A stretch of 64,000 bases of DNA from IMG/VR virus record IMGVR_UViG_2706796071_000001, one strand, 5' to 3'. The notes beneath the pieces are model-generated. The model was not told where the DNA came from, did no database searches, and saw only the letters and a list, made by a program, of their open reading frames with translations. The first letter of the stretch is position 1; the number at the start of each line of letters is the position of its first letter. The translations under genes were made by a program, and so were the position numbers. This DNA comes from a virus. Its lineage: Duplodnaviria; Heunggongvirae; Uroviricota; Caudoviricetes; Herelleviridae. Shown in pieces: positions 4,724-32,210 of the stretch.

Positions 4724-5266
4724 TTATATTAATAATTTTTTCCATTCTTTATCAACCTTTTTAAGTTCTTTTTTATTATAGTCCCCGTCTTTAGTTACTA
4801 CAGTGTTCCATTGGAACTTTTGTAATAAGCTAAAATTATTTATAATCCATATATTACTTTTACTATAATACATATTGTCTTCAAATCTTATATCTTTTTC
4901 TATAAAATATTTATATATTTTATATCTTCTTTCATCTGCACCTGATATTTTAATAATTTCATTAGTATTTAATTGAGTGGATAACTGGAAGATAACATCT
5001 TTTACTTTCAATAGGTCTTTAACATTACCTCTGCCTACATGGTCATTATAGTAATCATATTTAACTTTTTTCTTTTGTTTTCTATCATTAACTACAATGA
5101 ATATATTATATACGATATAAGCTTTAAAATGGGTATAGGTAGTAGGTGCTTCTGAATCATCACATTCTTTTCTTAGGTCTGTACATTGTATTTTTAACGT
5201 AATATTATTTGATATGTTAACTACAGTAGAACCCTCATGTTTTTTATTGAGATTTATCTTATCCAT
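4724..5266 (-). CDS. hypothetical protein
   Basis: 180-aa ORF. Confidence 0.5.
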   Translation of the reverse strand: MDKINLNKKHEGSTVVNISNNITLKIQCTDLRKECDDSEAPTTYTHFKAYIVYNIFIVVNDRKQKKKVKYDYYNDHVGRGNVKDLLKVKDVIFQLSTQLNTNEIIKISGADERRYKIYKYFIEKDIRFEDNMYYSKSNIWIINNFSLLQKFQWNTVVTKDGDYNKKELKKVDKEWKKLLI

Positions 5267-7550: not shown

Positions 7551-7868
7551 TTAATTTATTGGTTTAAACCACAATTTACTCTTATCACTTGGTTCTGTTT
7601 CACTAACTACGAAAGAGTTAGAATCAATGTTTAAAGTATTAAAAACAATTTCTTGTTTGTCTTCATTACTTTTTGTTGTAAATTCGGGAACATCTGTTAA
7701 TATAGACTCTTTACCATTAATAGTCCATGATATTTTAAAAGACCCTTGGCTATACACTGTATTCGGTGTCAGTTTTTCAATTATAATTTTAGCGGATGCA
7801 CCTGTAATTTTTTCTGAAGATTTTAATAATTTACCTTTGGAATCATATAAGTTTAATGTTCTCTCCAC
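7551..7868 (-). CDS. hypothetical protein (GTG start)
   Basis: 105-aa ORF. RBS aaaggagata 8 nt upstream of the GTG. Confidence 0.5.
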   Translation of the reverse strand: MERTLNLYDSKGKLLKSSEKITGASAKIIIEKLTPNTVYSQGSFKISWTINGKESILTDVPEFTTKSNEDKQEIVFNTLNIDSNSFVVSETEPSDKSKLWFKPIN

Positions 7869-7905
7869 AAATTTTATCTCCTTTACTATATTTTGTACAA
7901 TTAAT

Positions 7906-7936
7906 ATAACAAAAAAACACCTATTAGTTTAAATAG
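7906..7936 (-). terminator. rho-independent terminator ending the tRNA/ncRNA transcription unit
   Basis: Hairpin acacctattagtttaaataggtgt followed by a U7 run on the minus strand. Confidence 0.55.
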
Positions 7937-7939
7937 GTG

Positions 7940-8500
7940 TCCGACAGAGCTCCCGTACTTAGATTACGGTTAATAATATTTTACGACAATTATATGAGAC
8001 CCTCTGTCGTTGAAACTCTTGTCACTGCGTTATTCCACAAGATATTTTAGAAGGTAGCTTGTGGAAGAAGATTGTTTTTAAAGGTACAATTAGCGTTTTT
8101 AAGCCTATTCGATACCCAGGACACTATGTCCGTACTAACTATTACGTCAATAAAGGTTCTACGGTCTCAATTACCTACTCTTTATTGTTAAAACTAAAAT
8201 TAAGCTTGAGTGCTCTAGAAGCCAAAATCAATTAATTAACTATAGATACGGAATGGAGGGGCACTACCATCCGGAGTCTACGGTCAGATACAAAGCCTCT
8301 GCCGGGCAACATACGGTATCTCTCGTACATCAGGTTGACTAGACCTTTAGAGTTTTTCACTCCTTCTCTTATAACCAGTAACTTAAGAGAAATAGGTTTT
8401 ACTTAGTAGATATGAAACAATAAATCCACATACAATATTAAATCATAGTCAAGTGATTGCACATATGTCTAACACCTATAAGTTTTTTGCTAGCCTGGTA
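7940..8500 (-). ncRNA. candidate structured noncoding RNA of about 500 nt, co-transcribed with the tRNAs
   Basis: No ORF of 60 codons or more. GC is clearly higher than in the flanks. There are many local inverted repeats (acgaca/tgtcgt, ttccacaag/cttgtggaa, ggaca/tgtcc) and a repeated 'tctacggtc'. It is bounded by an upstream promoter and a downstream terminator on the minus strand. Confidence 0.35.
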
Positions 8501-8502
8501 TA

Positions 8503-8574
8503 TGGACTCTGCAGGATTCGAACCTACAGTCAAACCGTTATGAGCGGTTGGCTTTACCTTTAAGCTAAGAGTCC
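8503..8574 (-). tRNA. tRNA-Met (anticodon CAT)
   Basis: Folds by eye. Acceptor stem GGACTCT/AGAGTCC, T-arm GGTTCGAATCC, anticodon loop CTCATAA. Confidence 0.8.
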
Positions 8575-8581
8575 TAGAAAT

Positions 8582-8647
8582 ATCCTGAGAGAGGACTCGA
8601 ACCTCAACGACTAGGTAGCTACATCTAGCCAATGCCATTACTCAGGA
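8582..8647 (-). tRNA. tRNA-like element. The cloverleaf is non-canonical; it may be tRNA-Trp or a degenerate tRNA.
   Basis: Acceptor-like stem TCCTGAG/CTCAGGA and T-arm GAGGTTCGAGTCCTC are present. It is only 66 nt, and I could not fold a canonical D or anticodon arm. Confidence 0.35.
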
Positions 8648-8828
8648 TTGCTAGTAACGCTAAATAGAATTATAACGTTACCGTAGACCTTTTCTACGCT
8701 TGGTAGATAGGTAAAATATAATGATTTCAAAATACCCATATAGTCAGGCTCCTACTCTCATTATAAGGTTAAAAAGGCTAACTGTGTTTAGCATTATATA
8801 AGAGGCTTTAGTTAACTACTATACTAAT

Positions 8829-8857
8829 AATATACCATAAATTATACTTAATGTCAA
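8829..8857 (-). promoter_or_regulatory. sigma-A-type promoter driving the tRNA/ncRNA unit
   Basis: Minus-strand reading gives AAATTAACTTGACA, a 17-nt spacer, then TATATT. Confidence 0.5.
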
Positions 8858-9402
8858 GTTAATTTATCAATTGAATCTATAATTTTTGATGTGCTACGTA
8901 TATCCGCCTCTTTACTATGTTTAAGGAGATATTTTAATTTCATTAAAAAAGAATTTTTTTCTTTTTCTATAATATCTTCTTTATCCTCATATTCTGAAAA
9001 CATAATGAATTCTATACCTATACTATTTCTATTATGTGAAAACATATTTATAGAAAAAGGTGAATCAAAATTTTTATCATCTTTATTAATACTAAAGTCT
9101 TCAGTAACCTGTAAGTCATTTATTTCAGATATTTCAAAGTAACCATTAACTCTTTTAAGTTCAATATAACTATTGTATCTAAAGTAACGTTGTTCTTCTA
9201 TTAACTTCTCTTTTGTTATATAAGGATATTCATTTATGAATATAGGATTACTTGTTCCATAGTTATCTCTAATATATTCTGCATCCTCTAGGGAATCAGT
9301 ATAACCTAAAATTTCATAACTTGTTGTATACACTGTATCTTCTTCCCACAAGTCATAGTCCATTTCCTCTATTTCTTCTTCTAATATATAAATTTTTTTC
9401 AT
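8854..9402 (-). CDS. hypothetical acidic protein
   Basis: 182-aa ORF. Confidence 0.5.
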   Translation of the reverse strand: MKKIYILEEEIEEMDYDLWEEDTVYTTSYEILGYTDSLEDAEYIRDNYGTSNPIFINEYPYITKEKLIEEQRYFRYNSYIELKRVNGYFEISEINDLQVTEDFSINKDDKNFDSPFSINMFSHNRNSIGIEFIMFSEYEDKEDIIEKEKNSFLMKLKYLLKHSKEADIRSTSKIIDSIDKLT

Positions 9403-9624: not shown

Positions 9625-9819
9625 TTACATAACCTCTCCTATCGGGTATTGTCCTAGCATTCTTGTTCCATTTTCATTATAAAAAGTATATTCTACTACA
9701 ATAATATTCATCATATCTACATATATAGCTTCTATATACGGTGTAATATTTTCCTCTTCTTGTATGTGCTTACCTATGATATCATATAATAATTCTGAGT
9801 GTATTCTTTTATCTCTCAT
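9625..9819 (-). CDS. hypothetical protein
   Basis: 64-aa ORF, translationally coupled to its neighbour. Confidence 0.45.
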   Translation of the reverse strand: MRDKRIHSELLYDIIGKHIQEEENITPYIEAIYVDMMNIIVVEYTFYNENGTRMLGQYPIGEVM

Positions 9820-10546
9820 TATAGACCTCCGTAAGGAATGCTACAGTTTTGTCTTTCAAAGATTTTTCTACTAATTCCATAGCATCTTTATAGTGTTTGA
9901 TATTAGATTCATTAGACTTAAGTTTATCTTTTACTTCTTGAATTAGAGGTTCTACTTTATTAACCAAATCTTTTTTCTTTTCAATACTTACATTACTTCT
10001 CTTGTTATCTAATACTTCTTTTGGCATATACTTAACTTTTGCAAAGTCTTTATAGCTAACATTTAAGTTATCTAAATCATCTAATAAATCATTATAATAT
10101 TCTAAATGATTATAGAATGTGTAAAACTTAACAAGGTCTTTACCTGTTAGCTCTTCTTTTTTTAGTATATTATTGATATTACCAATAACAGAATATGCTA
10201 TAGGCTTAAAATTAGCCCTAACATAAGTTAAAAATATAAAATCATCATAAAACAAGTCTAAAACAGTTTTATTGAATCTAGTATTTTTAGCTTGCTCTAA
10301 TTGAGCACATAAATTAAGGACATTATCAAACCCACTCTTTAATACCAAAGAGATAAATCTTTCCACTGCATAGTACCTAGATACTTCAGTATGTTTGCTT
10401 GCTTTTTCACTATTTCTAAAAATAGTATCTGATAAAGGTTGAACTACTAAACTCATATAATCTTTATCTGAATATTCATCCGATGTTCCTTGATAAGTAC
10501 TTCCAAATTCTATTGTAGATAATAAAAAACTTTTTTCTAAATTCAT
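9809..10546 (-). CDS. nucleotidyltransferase-fold protein (minimal NTase motif plus a helical C-terminal domain)
   Basis: N-terminus FGSTYQGTSDEYSDKDYMSLVV fits the Pol-beta NTase pattern G-S-x(9)-D-x-D. RBS aggaggatgttataATG. Confidence 0.5.
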   Translation of the reverse strand: MNLEKSFLLSTIEFGSTYQGTSDEYSDKDYMSLVVQPLSDTIFRNSEKASKHTEVSRYYAVERFISLVLKSGFDNVLNLCAQLEQAKNTRFNKTVLDLFYDDFIFLTYVRANFKPIAYSVIGNINNILKKEELTGKDLVKFYTFYNHLEYYNDLLDDLDNLNVSYKDFAKVKYMPKEVLDNKRSNVSIEKKKDLVNKVEPLIQEVKDKLKSNESNIKHYKDAMELVEKSLKDKTVAFLTEVYNER

Positions 10547-30658: not shown

Positions 30659-30895
30659 TTGTATCTCTCCTTTTAAATATGTAAAGTATATAGCTAGTAT
30701 CGTATCCTAGGAACAAACACTTGCGCTATATACTCAATGAAACTCTACCCTCATTCGAGGACACAGCAAACCGGTTCGTCAACCGAACATATGAATTCTC
30801 AAGTTCCATTTATGTAACACACCCTCTTTGATTTGCACAAAGACTAAGGGTTTTGGAGACCCTTGTACTACTAATTATACTAAGGGTGTTTATTA

Positions 30896-30968
30896 TGGTT
30901 TCTATTGGATTTGAACCAATGACACCTAGAGCTTCAATCTAGTGCTCTACCATCTGAGCTAAGAAACC
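30896..30968 (-). tRNA. tRNA-Phe (anticodon GAA)
   Basis: Acceptor GGTTTCT/AGAAACC. Anticodon stem-loop CTAGA-TTGAAGC-TCTAG. T-arm GGTTCAAATCC. Confidence 0.85.
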
Positions 30969-30974
30969 TTGTAA

Positions 30975-31048
30975 CGACTCATACGAGACTCGAACTCGTA
31001 CTCTCTGCCGTGACAGGGCAGTGTGTTAACCAGTTACACCAATGAGCC
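30975..31048 (-). tRNA. tRNA-Asp (anticodon GTC)
   Basis: Acceptor GGCTCAT/ATGAGTC with one G-U pair. Anticodon stem-loop CTGCC-CTGTCAC-GGCAG. T-arm GAGTTCGAGTCTC. Confidence 0.8.
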
Positions 31049-31975
31049 AAAATAAATGCTATACCCTAACCTTACCTTAATGTATAGCAGGTTTTCATAT
31101 AAGCTCGAAGCAACGATTATTACCACTCATAACAACTATATATTAAGTGAAAGGAGGTGAAATGAACAAAACGTGGTAATTGGTACTTATATAGGAAATA
31201 TGTATAATCTACAAGGAGTAAGTTATTGGTTCATAAAGGAGTGTGAACAATAAATACATGAAAGAGTGAAAGAGTGAAAGTCTACTCCTTGTAGATTCTT
31301 TTTTAATTATCAATCAAAGGAGGAAACTGATAATTGTTAATAATAAACTATAAAGAGGAAAATATTTATAGTCACATTCTGATATAATGCAACTAAATAT
31401 CCAAGCATAACCCGTCTCACGAGGAACCTACCTATAAGACCTGTTATTAAGTGAATCACTACGATTGACTCTATTAAGGAGCTACCTTAAGTCCATCTCA
31501 CGCAATTTAAAAGGGACTTACAAACCGCATAACGGTAGTAAGTTTATTAAATAATGTGATATTAACATATTAGTTAATAACTTTCACATGGTCGAAGAAA
31601 AGTAAATTTATTTGATTACCAAATTATTTTTATCAAATATAGCTCTTTTGAACCTGTAGATTTATGCTACTCATACTGATAACCTCTATTATCTAACACA
31701 TTTCTGTGCTCCAACTACAGTTAGTCGTTACAGCGTATCTTTCTAGGATTCCGCTAAGACCCTAGAAAGAAATTAAACCCTAGCCGTTATCATACTCTAC
31801 AGACCTTATAAGTAAGTACCAAGTATACCAATCGTATTTAACAATACTAATGACGACTCACCCTACCGATATATCTCCGATAGGTTTTGATTCGTTTGAT
31901 TATCTTGTACCTTATGACTACCAAATCATTATTCAGTCACTATGCTCAGATATTTAGTTGTATTATTATATATTA

Positions 31976-32004
31976 ATTATAACATATTATATACCCCTTG
32001 TCAA
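31976..32004 (-). promoter_or_regulatory. consensus sigma-A promoter driving a leader of about 920 nt followed by tRNA-Asp and tRNA-Phe
   Basis: rc reads AAATTAACTTGACAaggggtatataatatgtTATAAT. Confidence 0.6.
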
Positions 32005-32011
32005 GTTAATT

Positions 32012-32054
32012 TCAAAAAAAAATTATAGAAGTAGGTACACGTACCTACTTCTAT
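32012..32054 (-). terminator. rho-independent terminator
   Basis: Minus-strand hairpin atagaagtaggtac-gt-gtacctacttctat, then AA and a U9 run. Confidence 0.6.
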
Positions 32055-32149
32055 TTAACTTACATAAGGATGTTTACATTGTTGTTGTTTATACTGGAAA
32101 ACAATGTAAGAAAAAAAACAGTGATGTGTAAGGTATTTGTTTTATTGTT
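32055..32149 (-). ncRNA. candidate small RNA of about 135 nt, bounded by promoter B and the terminator at 32012-32054
   Basis: The consensus promoter at 32156-32184 puts the TSS near 32149. The transcript has an internal stem-loop (acattgtt...aacaatgt, 32058-32109) and a terminator hairpin. It contains no ORF; every ATG is followed at once by a stop. Confidence 0.4.
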
Positions 32150-32155
32150 AATTAC

Positions 32156-32184
32156 ATTATAGCATATACTGATACCTTTGTCAA
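32156..32184 (-). promoter_or_regulatory. consensus sigma-A promoter B. Near-duplicate of the promoter at 31976-32004.
   Basis: rc reads AAATTAACTTGACAaaggtatcagtatatgcTATAAT. Confidence 0.6.
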
Positions 32185-32210
32185 GTTAATTTAATACTTT
32201 TTTTAAAATA

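What the first reader, a model, noticed from the sequence alone, without database searches (positions are those of the whole stretch)
7906..8857. A leftward noncoding transcription unit: promoter, tRNA-like element, tRNA-Met, a roughly 500-nt GC-elevated structured RNA and a terminator
A near-consensus promoter (rc AAATTAACTTGACA-17-TATATT at 8829-8857) points into a stretch with no ORF of 60 codons or more. That stretch contains, in order, a 66-nt tRNA-like element, a canonical tRNA-Met, and then about 500 nt (8500 to 7940) whose GC content is visibly higher than the AT-rich genome. The region is dense with local hairpins (acgaca/tgtcgt, ttccacaag/cttgtggaa, ggaca/tgtcc, repeated tctacggtc) and ends at a clean intrinsic terminator at 7913-7936.

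Elevated GC with many stems in a 30% GC phage is a hallmark of functional RNA. The 500-nt element is not a group I intron, because the P7 core is absent, and it has no obvious protein-coding capacity.
Basis: seen in the sequence. Interest (0 to 1): 0.6.

Follow-up and report, generated by a model that had tools for sequence, protein, structure and literature searches.

The report
Phage tRNA-linked modular noncoding RNA unit
This stretch of a phage K-like Staphylococcus virus is the already published, very abundant 'lncRNA1' unit (promoter, tRNA-like element, tRNA-Met, about 560 nt of noncoding RNA, terminator), and the long RNA looks like a chain of separate, swappable small structured RNAs rather than one big fold.

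Summary
The window is Staphylococcus phage phiIPLA-RODI, a Kayvirus. The described anatomy is real: promoter, 66-nt tRNA-like element, tRNA(CAU), ORF-free RNA and terminator.

The transcript is already known. Three RNA-seq studies of near-identical phages report it as the very abundant 'lncRNA1', function unknown.

What this analysis adds is that it is not one 500-nt fold. Comparison with 20 or more phages shows a mosaic of independently present, absent or inserted modules.
- **Module D (8244-8331).** A 90-nt H-type pseudoknot RNA, homologous to the Listeria prophage sRNA rli62 (RF01486) and also found in Lactobacillus phages. Covariation is strong: 96% paired, 15 of 23 pairs with double changes.
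- **Module B (7906-8030).** Fits the DUF3800-I motif (RF02969) and has a covarying stem. It is an orphan: elsewhere this RNA sits 69-120 nt from a DUF3800 nuclease gene, and none was found here.
- **tRNA-like element and TEG147-like hairpin.** These form the conserved core shared across three Twortvirinae genera.
- **Remaining segments E and C.** No fold signal beyond chance (z = -0.5).

Function remains inferred. B may be a nuclease-binding decoy. D may be a cis-acting read-through or stability element.

The parts
8829..8857 (-). Sigma-70-type early promoter: TTGACA, 17-nt spacer, TG-extended TATATT. The TSS is expected near 8822.
   Evidence: 11/12 consensus matches. The same promoter block is conserved in PG-2021_18, EW2, T-SE-E1, KMSP1 and MR003. 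[quoted passage not shown]
8711..8770 (-). TEG147-like hairpin in the 5' leader. Outer stem UAUAAUGA/UCAUUAUA, an internal AGUA/GAAA loop-E-like motif, then UUUU.
   Evidence: Rfam RF03535 at 41.9 bits (gathering score 56.1), E = 9e-7. Sub-threshold hits at the same place in Maine, PG-2021_38, EW3, Twort and MR003, plus a second copy between D and B in T-SE-E1. About 92% identical in Twort while the flanks diverge. Fold z is only -0.85.
8582..8647 (-). 66-nt tRNA-like element: acceptor stem and T arm, no D arm, oversized 'anticodon' loop containing the palindrome GUAGCUAC.
   Evidence: The acceptor stem covaries: UCCUGAG/CUCAGGA in RODI against UCCUAAG/CUUAGGA in Twort. The T stem covaries: GAGG/CCUC against GGGG/CCCC in Silviavirus MR003. 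Retained in PG-2021_38, which has lost tRNA-Met.
8503..8574 (-). tRNA with anticodon CAU (elongator Met, or Ile2 if lysidine-modified). No encoded CCA.
   Evidence: ARAGORN; Rfam tRNA 67.2 bits. Some GenBank records annotate it as tRNA-Ile.
8336..8502 (-). Segment E, the 5' part of lncRNA1. It contains the hairpin 8391-8364 (UUCUCUUA/UAAGAGAA) with a conserved loop AAGUUAYNGGUUAYAAG. The rest is AT-rich with no fold signal.
   Evidence: Alignment A2. Twort keeps the loop and a shortened stem with one compensatory change (C-G to A-U). z-scores about 0. GC 30.5%.
8244..8331 (-). Module D, an rli62-family H-type pseudoknot RNA.
- P1: 8331-8324 pairs with 8315-8308.
- Pseudoknot: P1-loop AGAUAC (8321-8316) pairs with GUAUCU (8249-8244).
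- Core: near-invariant GCCCGGCAGAGGCUUUGUAUCUGAC (8307-8283), including a 3-bp mini-hairpin.
- P3: 8272-8267 pairs with 8256-8251.
   Evidence: Covariation: 96.2% of cells paired against 30-46% in slid controls; 15 of 23 pairs with double changes; all 6 pseudoknot pairs covary; 0 of 500 shuffles reach the observed values. A covariance model built from these sequences scores Listeria phages A118 and B025, which were not in the seed, at 80 bits. The Listeria copies hit RF01486 rli62 at 75-113 bits. Only one copy is in the window.
8081..8243 (-). Segment C, a variable filler. Present in K/RODI-type phages, absent or replaced in most relatives, and partly shared with Golestan-100 and Baoshanvirus BS1 at other loci.
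   Evidence: Fold z about 0.
8033..8066 (-). Lineage-specific hairpin UUCCACAAG/CUUGUGGAA. Its 5' arm is homologous to the sequence that directly follows the tRNA-like element in Silviavirus MR003.
   Evidence: S2G3, Golestan and KMSP1 carry a different hairpin at this place.
7906..8030 (-). Module B, an orphan DUF3800-I-like RNA with its own intrinsic terminator.
- P1: ACGC/GNGU.
- P2: CGACAGAG (8009-8002) pairs with CUCUGUCG (7949-7942).
- Signature hairpin: UUAACCGUAAUCUAAGUACGG (7972-7952).
- Terminator stem: 7942-7915 plus a U tract.
   Evidence: RF02969 scores 44.1 bits in RODI (gathering score 44.2, E = 3.6e-5) and 45.5 bits in S2G3. P2 is 100% paired, with 4 of 8 pairs carrying double changes. 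The phage hairpin used as a search pattern retrieves bona fide DUF3800-I RNAs. Fold z = -3.65.

Best explanation
The region is the Kayvirus noncoding operon already known as TU8/lncRNA1.

**Transcription and processing.** An early host-type promoter drives one primary transcript of about 900 nt that ends at an intrinsic terminator. The CCA-less tRNA(CAU) is presumably excised by RNase P and RNase Z (inferred). This leaves a 3' product of about 560-600 nt, the abundant 'lncRNA1'.

**Architecture (shown here).** That product is not a single large fold. It is a string of autonomous RNA domains gained, lost and swapped by recombination within a conserved 'landing pad' of promoter, TEG147-like hairpin, tRNA-like element and terminator. 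Two domains are under clear structural selection:
- D, an rli62-family pseudoknot RNA.
- B, a DUF3800-I-type RNA with a built-in terminator.

**How each domain likely works (inferred).**
- B mimics the RNA partner of DUF3800 RNase-H-fold nucleases carried by prophages. Expressed without the nuclease, it would act as a binding decoy or antidote. About 0.2.
- In temperate Listeria phages D sits at the very 5' end of the late transcript, just before terminators. It acts in cis on the transcribing or decaying RNA, allowing terminator read-through into downstream genes (about 0.3) or protecting the RNA from decay (about 0.15). Otherwise it is a stable protein-binding sRNA (about 0.3).
- The tRNA-type elements supply processing sites, and one supplies a decoding tRNA.
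For: **Identity and expression**
- 100% identical to KP027446, 99.5% to phage K.
- PMC7698491, PMC9241854 and PMC11598898 map lncRNA1 to phage K 13,688-14,215, which is window 7962-8489. It is detected from 2 min. lncRNA1 and lncRNA2 together take 27% of reads. No separate promoter was found.

**Modularity**
- BLAST map of 12 relatives and alignments A1, A2 and A5.
- MR003 has only the minimal unit.
- PG-2021_18 has D 7 nt after the -10 box.
- Twort has two tandem D copies.

**Module D**
- Covariation including all 6 pseudoknot pairs.
- Homologues in Lactobacillus phages (Nyseid, SA-C12, Bacchae and others) inside tRNA arrays or between terS and terL. Homologues in Listeria phages A118, B025 and LP-101 lie directly after the late activator gene and its -10 box.
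- Bona fide rli62 hit at 113 bits.
- An intrinsic terminator follows D within 12-530 nt in most phages, for example 38 nt in A118 and 17 nt in Twort.
- D is always co-oriented with the downstream genes.
- gp032, downstream of the RODI terminator, has no credible promoter of its own.

**Module B**
- CM hits and a covarying P2 stem.
- 13 of 20 bacterial and 25 of 33 viral loci sharing the hairpin are true DUF3800-I RNAs or have a DUF3800 gene 13-160 nt away.
- No DUF3800 ORF in the window or in 27 phage loci.
- DUF3800 has an RNase H fold and is a retron type VII effector (PMC7736814, PMC10910872).
Against: - RNA-seq papers describe continuous coverage of about 530 nt, not discrete small species. 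Processing into separate RNAs is not shown, and the domains may work together on one molecule.
- No DUF3800 gene was found in any Staphylococcus phage or plasmid by tblastn, so a target for a B decoy in the natural host is undocumented.
- B could have been captured merely as a convenient terminator cassette.
- In Kayvirus, D lies 170 nt from the RNA's 5' end and about 300 nt from the terminator, unlike its position in Listeria phages. Lactobacillus-phage copies have no nearby terminator.
- High lncRNA1 abundance relative to downstream genes argues that termination at 7915-7942 is efficient rather than suppressed.
- B covariation rests on only two or three independent lineages.
- E and C show no structural signal and may be junk.
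Confidence: 0.6

Rival explanations
1. A single large structured RNA of about 500-600 nt, in the manner of GOLLD, ROOL or OLE. This is the reading of the first reader and of the RNA-seq papers. The whole molecule folds and acts as one unit, perhaps as a multimeric particle.
For: - The location next to tRNA genes and the very high abundance resemble GOLLD and ROOL.
- The whole 597-nt RNA is more stable than shuffles, z = -2.7.
- K-type phages (126 of 274 records) keep the full arrangement at 95% identity or more.
Against: - No GOLLD, ROOL or OLE hit at E<=10.
- The z-score comes from the 3' 140 nt; 8081-8502 gives z = -0.49.
- Relatives delete or replace C, the tRNA, E or B while keeping the other parts.
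- D and B occur alone in unrelated phages.
- No long-range covariation was seen.
Confidence: 0.12
2. Mostly evolutionary debris. The space between the tRNA and the terminator is a recombination and homing-endonuclease hot spot that has filled with captured fragments. The RNA is abundant only because of a strong promoter and stable hairpins, and has no function beyond the tRNA.
For: - Mosaic structure.
- HNH endonuclease genes flank the homologous spot in Twort and S2G3.
- E and C lack fold or covariation signal.
- C is absent from many relatives.
- Weak tRNA-like remnants (33 bits) lie in the variable part of PG-2021_18 and EW2.
Against: - D keeps a near-invariant 25-nt core and compensatory changes across phages of three host genera.
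- B keeps its stem through four double substitutions.
- The tRNA-like element covaries in two stems across three genera.
- Debris would not preserve pairing.
Confidence: 0.15
3. The region encodes one or more small proteins. For example, phage Maine annotates CDSs of 54 and 33 codons here, and RODI has ORFs of 42 and 66 codons. Conservation would then reflect coding.
For: - ORFs exist.
- GenBank annotations in Maine, S2G3 and T-SE-E1 call short hypothetical proteins.
Against: - The frame over D is interrupted by stops or frameshifts in EW2, EW3, PG-2021_38, T-SE-E1, PG-2021_18 and Twort.
- Indels of 29 nt and 2 nt occur.
- Substitutions are pairwise-compensatory, not third-position.
- The 66-codon ORF overlaps a tRNA.
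- AGGAG abuts the GTG with no spacer.
Confidence: 0.03
4. D (or the whole RNA) is a catalytic or ligand-sensing RNA: a new self-cleaving ribozyme, or a riboswitch controlling the downstream terminator.
For: - D is a compact pseudoknot with about 25 invariant junction nucleotides, typical of ribozymes and aptamers.
- It lies in a 5' leader followed by a terminator and an ORF in A118 and L016.
- It is associated with phages and tRNAs, like several small ribozymes (own knowledge).
Against: - No match to any ribozyme or riboswitch family.
- It is embedded in tRNA arrays with no gene to regulate in Lactobacillus phages, and in a noncoding RNA in Kayvirus.
- No alternative terminator/antiterminator pairing was evident.
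Confidence: 0.08

Closest known systems
Kayvirus lncRNA1 / lnc001 (phage K, vB_SauM-515A1)
   Same: The same locus, 99.5% identical in sequence. The transcript starts after tRNA-Met and ends at the same terminator. It is highly abundant from early infection.
   Different: Nothing in the sequence differs. The papers treat it as one lncRNA compared with GOLLD/ROOL by position only. They do not report the modules, their covariation, or the rli62 and DUF3800-I relationships, as far as the searchable library shows.
DUF3800-I RNA motif (Rfam RF02969; Weinberg et al. 2017)
   Same: - P1 hairpin.
- Outer stem enclosing a nearly identical UUAA-SCGUAAUNUAAGUACGS hairpin.
- 3' intrinsic terminator.
- CM score at or above threshold in relatives.
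- A (pro)phage habitat.
   Different: - No DUF3800 gene nearby or anywhere in the window.
- The closing pair of the signature hairpin is flipped from G-C to C-G.
- A 14-nt insertion lies in the small internal hairpin.
- It is embedded at the 3' end of a longer noncoding transcript of a virulent myovirus.
Listeria sRNA rli62 (Rfam RF01486), from prophage A118
   Same: Homologous core and the same P1, P2, P3 and pseudoknot layout. A model built mostly from Staphylococcus and Lactobacillus phage copies scores A118 at 80.6 bits. L022 is a bona fide rli62 at 113 bits.
   Different: - RODI's copy does not reach RF01486 even at E<=10. The Rfam model includes Listeria-specific 5' leader sequence and a different predicted structure without the pseudoknot.
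- In Listeria the RNA starts at the late-promoter TSS. In Kayvirus it is internal to an early noncoding transcript.
Phage T4 tRNA-region stable RNAs (species 1 and 2, rnaC/rnaD); own knowledge
   Same: Small stable non-tRNA RNAs co-transcribed with phage tRNA genes and matured with them. Their function is still unknown.
   Different: No sequence or structural relationship was tested or expected. T4 infects E. coli.
GOLLD and ROOL large RNAs of Lactobacillales phages
   Same: Location beside tRNA genes in phages of Bacilli, and high abundance.
   Different: No Rfam hit at E<=10. Here there is no single conserved large fold, and the RNA is modular.
HK022 put RNA, the lambda pR'-6S-tR' leader and B. 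subtilis EAR (cis-acting read-through RNAs); own knowledge
   Same: These are working analogies for D only. D is a structured RNA immediately downstream of a (late) promoter, followed by terminators that must be passed to express a long operon.
   Different: No sequence or structure similarity, and none of these families was hit. No read-through activity has been shown.
Pseudo-ToxI and other phage-encoded antitoxin-RNA mimics (type III toxin-antitoxin escape); own knowledge
   Same: This is a working analogy for B only. A virulent phage carries just the RNA half of a protein-RNA pair that is otherwise encoded together in prophages.
   Different: DUF3800/DUF3800-I has not been shown to be a toxin-antitoxin or defence pair. 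B is a single unit, not a repeat array.
S. aureus Teg147 (Rfam RF03535)
   Same: The leader hairpin 8711-8770 shares the AUGAGAGUAGGA...GAAAUCAU core and a U tail.
   Different: It scores 41.9 bits against a gathering score of 56.1. The outer stem sequence differs. Its function is unknown in either setting.

Membership tests
DUF3800-I RNA (RF02969) | Covariance-model score at or above the Rfam gathering score (44.2 bits) | tested here: inconclusive
   RODI 44.1 bits (E = 3.6e-5 for the region). S2G3 homologue 45.5 bits (above threshold). Golestan-100 41.3 bits, truncated. Bona fide bacterial members score 56-102 bits.
DUF3800-I RNA (RF02969) | Conserved hairpin UUAAGCGUAnUnUAAGUACGC enclosed by an outer stem | tested here: met
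   RODI has UUAACCGUAAUCUAAGUACGG, with the closing pair flipped G-C to C-G. A pattern allowing both forms retrieved 13 of 20 genome loci that are true DUF3800-I. The outer stem is 100% paired, with 4 of 8 pairs carrying double changes.
DUF3800-I RNA (RF02969) | Rho-independent terminator at the 3' end | tested here: met
   11-bp stem at 7942-7915 plus a U tract.
DUF3800-I RNA (RF02969) | Encoded next to a DUF3800 (PF12686) gene | tested here: not met
   - No Pfam DUF3800 among 7 neighbouring ORFs.
- A custom DUF3800 HMM finds nothing in all 181 window ORFs, nor in the ORFs of 27 phage loci.
- In contrast, 25 of 33 other viral contigs have the gene 69-120 nt away.
- Only 64 kb of the 142-kb genome could be scanned. 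tblastn of two DUF3800 proteins against all phage records hit no Staphylococcus phage.
rli62 (RF01486) | Covariance-model score at or above the gathering score (83 bits) | tested here: not met
   RODI gives no hit at E<=10. S2G3 scores 37.9, L016 40.8 and A118 77.2 bits; only L022 (113 bits) passes. The Rfam model is narrow and Listeria-only.
rli62 (RF01486) | Homology of the core and shared secondary structure with Listeria prophage rli62 | tested here: met
   Model R1, built from Staphylococcus, Lactobacillus and one Listeria-type sequence, scores the unseeded A118 at 80.6 bits and B025 at 79.8 bits, exactly at their RF01486 hits. The shared core GCCCGGCAGAGGCUUUGUAUCUG is near-invariant, and P1 and the pseudoknot covary.
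Canonical tRNA (RF00005): element 8503-8574 | Cloverleaf with a 7-nt anticodon loop, scoring above 29 bits | tested here: met
   67.2 bits. ARAGORN calls tRNA-Met, anticodon CAU.
Canonical tRNA (RF00005): element 8582-8647 | Cloverleaf with a D arm and a 7-nt anticodon loop | tested here: not met
   Not reported by Rfam at E<=10 or by ARAGORN at default settings. Found only at ps60, with a 2-nt 'anticodon'. The acceptor and T arms are present and covary.
GOLLD / ROOL / OLE large RNAs | Match to the family covariance model | tested here: not met
   No hit at E<=10 in 7800-8950, nor at gathering score in the whole window.
Group I intron | Match to the Intron_gpI model (P3-P9 core with P7) | tested here: not met
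No hit at E<=10.
Teg147 (RF03535) | Score at or above the gathering score (56.1 bits) | tested here: not met
   41.9 bits, E = 9e-7. Relatives score 33.8-44.5 bits. This is a resemblance only.

The most novel reading that the evidence does not exclude
The most abundant early transcript of therapeutic Kayviruses is an array of host-takeover RNAs. At least one of two things would be true.
1. The orphan DUF3800-I module is an RNA decoy or antidote. It neutralises prophage-encoded DUF3800 RNase-H-fold nucleases, and would reveal DUF3800 plus its RNA as a protein-RNA defence or toxin-antitoxin pair.
2. The rli62-family pseudoknot is a new class of cis-acting RNA. It makes RNA polymerase read through terminators, or blocks 5'-to-3' decay. 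It would be used by temperate Listeria phages at the head of their late operon, by Lactobacillus phages inside tRNA arrays, and by Twortvirinae.
Probability: 0.3. Interest if true: 0.8.

Novelty: already known. Interest (0 to 1): 0.45.

Why it matters
Phage K-type viruses, including phiIPLA-RODI, are leading candidates for therapy and biocontrol against S. aureus. Their two 'lncRNAs' take up roughly a quarter of all phage reads, yet nobody knows what they do.

Showing that lncRNA1 is built from discrete modules turns a vague 'long noncoding RNA' into four or five defined RNAs of 60-130 nt. Each has base pairs that can be mutated and restored. The modules have relatives in Listeria and Lactobacillus phages and in DUF3800-carrying prophages.

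The analysis also gives the orphan Rfam families rli62, DUF3800-I and possibly Teg147 a broader phage context:
- rli62 gains a pseudoknot structure supported by covariation, and a consistent position at the start of late operons or beside tRNAs.
- DUF3800-I gains a natural 'RNA without its protein' case. That is the kind of asymmetry that has previously exposed phage counter-defence.

Tried and rejected
- **Known large or catalytic RNAs.** Rfam at gathering score on the whole window, and at E<=10 on 7800-8950, gave no GOLLD, ROOL, OLE, group I/II intron, tmRNA, 6S, riboswitch or ribozyme. ARAGORN found no tmRNA.
- **Shared sequence between lncRNA1 and the second noncoding stretch (lncRNA2, about 31,050-32,210).** Only the promoter and terminator blocks are similar. 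lncRNA2 has no Rfam hit and no D copy.
- **Coding potential.** Rejected.
- **Decayed tRNA array.** Relaxed ARAGORN gives only low-quality calls apart from the tRNA-like element. Weak 33-bit tRNA hits exist in the variable part of two relatives. This may explain some filler but not D or B.
- **A DUF3800 protein partner.** Not found in the window, in related phage loci, in Staphylococcus phages or in Staphylococcus plasmids. The marginal HMM hits (E about 0.4) to a 244-262-aa ORF upstream of the unit in T-SE-E1 and PG-2021_18 are not DUF3800 by Pfam.
- **Resemblance of D's P1 (GUACGAGAG) to the 23S sarcin-ricin loop.** Judged coincidental, because other family members have unrelated P1 sequences.
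- **SD-like P1 loops (GGAGG) acting as a 'STAB-SD' stabiliser.** Present in Listeria and Lactobacillus copies but not in Kayvirus, so not a family feature.
- **Automated hairpin finder for the pseudoknot.** It mis-assigned several stems and was replaced by a column-based count on alignment A3.
- **Metagenome scan for the D core.** Only 2 strong and 3 weak members, so the family appears confined to phages of Bacilli.
- **Supplementary text of Weinberg et al. 2017 on DUF3800-I.** Not available.
Full report
**Identity of the window and status of the observation**

The 1,051 bases around the finding are 100% identical, at the same coordinates, to Staphylococcus phage phiIPLA-RODI (KP027446). They are 99.5% identical to phage K and many other Kayviruses; 274 phage records match, all from Staphylococcus.
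- A TG-extended sigma-70 promoter, TTGACA-17-TATATT, at 8857-8829.
- A canonical tRNA with anticodon CAU at 8503-8574.
- An intrinsic terminator at 7942-7915.
- A 66-nt tRNA-like element at 8647-8582. It has a 7-bp acceptor stem and a textbook T arm, but no D arm and a 10-nt 'anticodon' loop.

- There is a 66-codon ORF, but it runs through both tRNA-type elements and is spurious.
- GC is only moderately raised: 36.6% against 30.7% (sd 4.1%), and one window in ten is as high. The rise comes from a 90-nt piece at 52% and the tRNA-type elements.
- Predicted folding is no better than shuffled sequence for 8081-8502 (z = -0.49). The overall z of -2.7 is carried by the last 140 nt.

**It is already known as a transcript**

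Three RNA-seq studies of phage K or vB_SauM-515A1 report this stretch as 'lncRNA1' or 'lnc001':
- It is detectable from 2 min.
- Together with a second noncoding region it is the most abundant phage RNA, at 27% of reads.
- Its function is unknown.

These are PMC7698491, PMC9241854 and PMC11598898. Using the offset, the 2024 boundaries (phage K 13,688-14,215) correspond to window 7962-8489. The papers compare it with GOLLD and ROOL by position and abundance only. A review speaks of sequence similarity, but Rfam finds no GOLLD, ROOL, OLE, intron, tmRNA or ribozyme here even at E<=10.

**The RNA is a mosaic, not one fold**

A BLAST map of the region against 12 relatives and alignments show blocks that come and go independently:
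- PG-2021_38 joins block B directly to block D and lacks tRNA-Met.
- T-SE-E1 and EW2 lack the tRNA and its leader, and T-SE-E1 has an extra TEG147-like hairpin between D and B.
- KMSP1 has B but other sequence upstream.
- PG-2021_18 places D seven bases after the -10 box.
- Twort has tRNA-Met, part of E and two tandem D copies followed by a terminator.
- Silviavirus MR003 has only promoter, TEG147-like hairpin, tRNA-like element and terminator. The sequence after its tRNA-like element is homologous to RODI 8066-8040.

The conserved frame is therefore promoter, leader hairpin, tRNA-like element and terminator. tRNA-Met, E, D, C and B are insertions into it. In Twort and S2G3, homing-type HNH endonuclease genes sit beside the homologous spot.

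**Module D (8244-8331)**

This is the GC-rich piece and the most widely conserved. A pattern from its near-invariant core, UUGCCCGGCAGAGGCUUUGUAUCUGAC, found copies outside Staphylococcus phages. BLAST places these in two groups:
- Lactobacillus phages Nyseid, SA-C12, Lenus, P1, P2, Satyr, Maenad and Bacchae.
- Listeria phages A118, B025, LP-101 and 184.

On an alignment of 15 distinct sequences I defined four helices:
- A hairpin P1.
- A 3-bp mini-hairpin inside the core.
- A hairpin P3.
- A pseudoknot between the P1 loop and the tail after P3.

The count was 96.2% of cells paired, against 30-46% when partners are slid. Fifteen of 23 pairs carry changes on both sides, including all six pseudoknot pairs, and no shuffle in 500 reached the observed values. 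Examples of the pseudoknot are AGAUAC/GUAUCU (RODI), AUAUAC/GUAUAU (Twort 1), AGGUG/CACCU (Twort 2), AGGGUCG/CGACCCU (Nyseid-type), GAGGUU/AACCUC (Listeria prophage) and GAGAUU/AAUCUC (A118).

A covariance model from this alignment scores A118 and B025, which were not in it, at about 80 bits. At exactly those places Rfam reports rli62 (RF01486): 113 bits in one Listeria prophage contig and 75-79 bits in the others. rli62 is known only as an sRNA of the A118 prophage of L. monocytogenes EGD-e (PMC3556495). RODI's own copy does not reach RF01486. The Rfam model is Listeria-specific and its structure lacks the pseudoknot. The 42-codon ORF across D is not conserved.

**Context of module D elsewhere**

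- In A118, B025 and related prophages, D begins 7-8 nt after a -10 box. That box lies just downstream of the late transcriptional activator gene (RinA/ArpU-type) and upstream of HNH-terS-terL. In A118 an intrinsic terminator follows 38 nt later.
- A118's leader is otherwise the rliG sRNA region, with D as a 108-nt insertion.
- In the 79-kb Lactobacillus phages, D lies among tRNA genes between terS and terL. In Bacchae it lies inside a 15-tRNA array.
- A terminator follows D within 12-530 nt in most Staphylococcus and Listeria phages, but not in the Lactobacillus ones.
- D is always co-oriented with the genes downstream.
- In RODI, the gene after the terminator (7551-7868) has no credible promoter of its own, so some read-through must occur.

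These facts fit a cis-acting role in read-through or RNA stabilisation. They also fit a short terminated sRNA. They do not decide between the two.

**Module B (7906-8030)**

Rfam's DUF3800-I model (RF02969) scores 44.1 bits in RODI against a gathering score of 44.2 (E = 3.6e-5), and 45.5 bits in phage S2G3. Among Twortvirinae the 8-bp stem CGACAGAG/CUCUGUCG becomes CAUCAAGG/CCUUGAUG or CAACAGAG/CUCUGUUG. It is 100% paired, with four pairs changed on both sides.

The signature hairpin differs from the family consensus only by a flipped closing pair. Used as a search pattern, it retrieved two sets of loci:
- Twenty bacterial loci. Thirteen are bona fide DUF3800-I (56-102 bits), and at least seven of them have a Pfam-confirmed or HMM-clustered DUF3800 gene 13-160 nt away.
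- Thirty-five viral contigs. Of the 33 that are not Kayvirus, 25 have a DUF3800 gene 69-120 nt from the hairpin. The two Kayvirus contigs have none.

No DUF3800 ORF exists in the 64-kb window or in 27 related loci. tblastn finds the protein in no Staphylococcus phage or plasmid. DUF3800 is predicted to have an RNase H fold, is the effector of type VII retrons, and accompanies some Cas12a2 systems. Weinberg et al. noted the tight, orientation-independent RNA-protein linkage and found no self-cleavage. Kayvirus B is thus a structurally conserved but orphan DUF3800-I-type RNA that also supplies the unit's terminator.

**Other parts**

- The tRNA-like element is more conserved than its flanks. It shows compensatory changes in the acceptor stem (Twort) and the T stem (MR003).
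- The leader hairpin resembles S. aureus Teg147 (41.9 bits; gathering score 56.1). It is kept in Twort and MR003.
- E has one conserved hairpin with a conserved loop.
- C has no detectable signal and is often absent.

**Most likely mechanism, and what is shown versus inferred**

Shown:
- One promoter-to-terminator noncoding unit.
- High expression (from the literature).
- Modular composition.
- Selection on the structures of D, B and the tRNA-like element.
- Family relationships of D and B.
- Absence of B's usual protein partner.

Inferred:
- RNase P and RNase Z excise the CCA-less tRNA and create the 5' end of lncRNA1. This is established for CCA-less tRNAs in Bacillus-type bacteria, but was not tested here.
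- The domains act separately.
- B binds DUF3800-type nucleases as a decoy, by analogy with antitoxin-RNA mimics. My estimate is 0.2.
- D acts in cis on transcription read-through (0.3) or RNA decay (0.15), or is a stable protein-binding RNA (0.3).

Rivals are a single GOLLD-like fold (0.12), recombinational debris (0.15), a ribozyme or riboswitch (0.08) and small proteins (0.03). I place 0.6 on the modular-operon description as a whole.

**Verdict**

The entity itself is already published, so it is not a discovery. The residual interest lies in three things:
- The modular anatomy.
- The covariation-supported pseudoknot, which extends the rli62 family to three phage-host genera.
- The orphan DUF3800-I RNA.

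All three give concrete, testable handles on an abundant RNA of therapeutic phages whose role is still unknown.

Noticed in passing
window 31050-32210 (minus strand): A second 1.16-kb ORF-free stretch lies upstream of tRNA-Asp/Phe/Trp (30818-31049) and corresponds to the published lncRNA2. It has two promoter blocks similar to the one at 8807-8865 (31953-32012 and 32158-32193). It has no Rfam hit at E<=1 and no copy of module D.
   Followed up: partly
window 8503-8574: The CAU tRNA lacks initiator features: it has a G1-C72 pair and no GGG/CCC in the anticodon stem. Several GenBank records call it tRNA-Ile. In a 30% GC phage it may be a lysidine-modified tRNA-Ile2 reading AUA. It has no encoded CCA.
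   Followed up: no
window 7551-7868 (minus strand) and L002 96-1946: The 105-codon ORF after the terminator is annotated 'major tail protein' in phage K RefSeq. At the DNA level it aligns with the 5' part of a 616-codon 'lipase/acylhydrolase' gene in phage Maine, so it looks like a truncated or remodelled gene. Pfam gives no significant hit. It has no convincing promoter of its own.
   Followed up: partly
L022 9660-9850; L013 about 1400-1590; L014 about 4850-5010: Next to module D homologues in Listeria and Lactobacillus phages there are strings typical of a tRNA-Leu D arm (GGCGGAAUAGGUAGACGC). A T arm (GGUGCAAAUCC or GGUUCGACUCC) lies 150-190 nt further on. These may be interrupted or aberrant tRNA-like genes that ARAGORN does not call.
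   Followed up: no
L066 1330-1701 (Listeria phage A118): The A118 late leader matches the Listeria sRNA rliG (RF02415, 274 bits), with the rli62 module as a 108-nt insertion. rliG and rli62 are therefore the same late-promoter leader, without and with the inserted pseudoknot RNA.
   Followed up: partly
L067 1949-1999 and L022 9934-9984: The mcrA RNA motif (RF03010, 74-78 bits) lies just upstream of the HNH endonuclease gene that precedes terS in Listeria phage B025 and a related prophage.
   Followed up: no
L003 2385-2570 (phage Twort): There are two tandem copies of module D. The second has the mini-hairpin changed from GCC/GGC to GCG/CGC and its own pseudoknot pair set (AGGUG/CACCU). A terminator follows 17 nt later.
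   Followed up: yes
L005 528-616 (phage S2G3): A near-perfect 85-90-nt palindromic hairpin in an intergenic region scores about 50 bits against several microRNA precursor models on both strands. It is probably a long inverted repeat or bidirectional terminator.
   Followed up: no
L029, L035, L043 and many IMG/VR contigs (L068-L099): DUF3800 gene and DUF3800-I RNA pairs sit in prophage-like neighbourhoods (GH25/LysM lysins; near the cI/Cro region in Streptococcus Javan prophages and a satellite). That position is typical of prophage accessory or defence cargo.
   Followed up: partly
window 9809-10546 (minus strand): A 245-codon ORF upstream of the unit is annotated 'nucleotidyltransferase' in phage K RefSeq but has no Pfam hit at E<=0.01. 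In T-SE-E1 and PG-2021_18 a different 244-262-codon ORF occupies the position immediately upstream of the promoter.
   Followed up: partly
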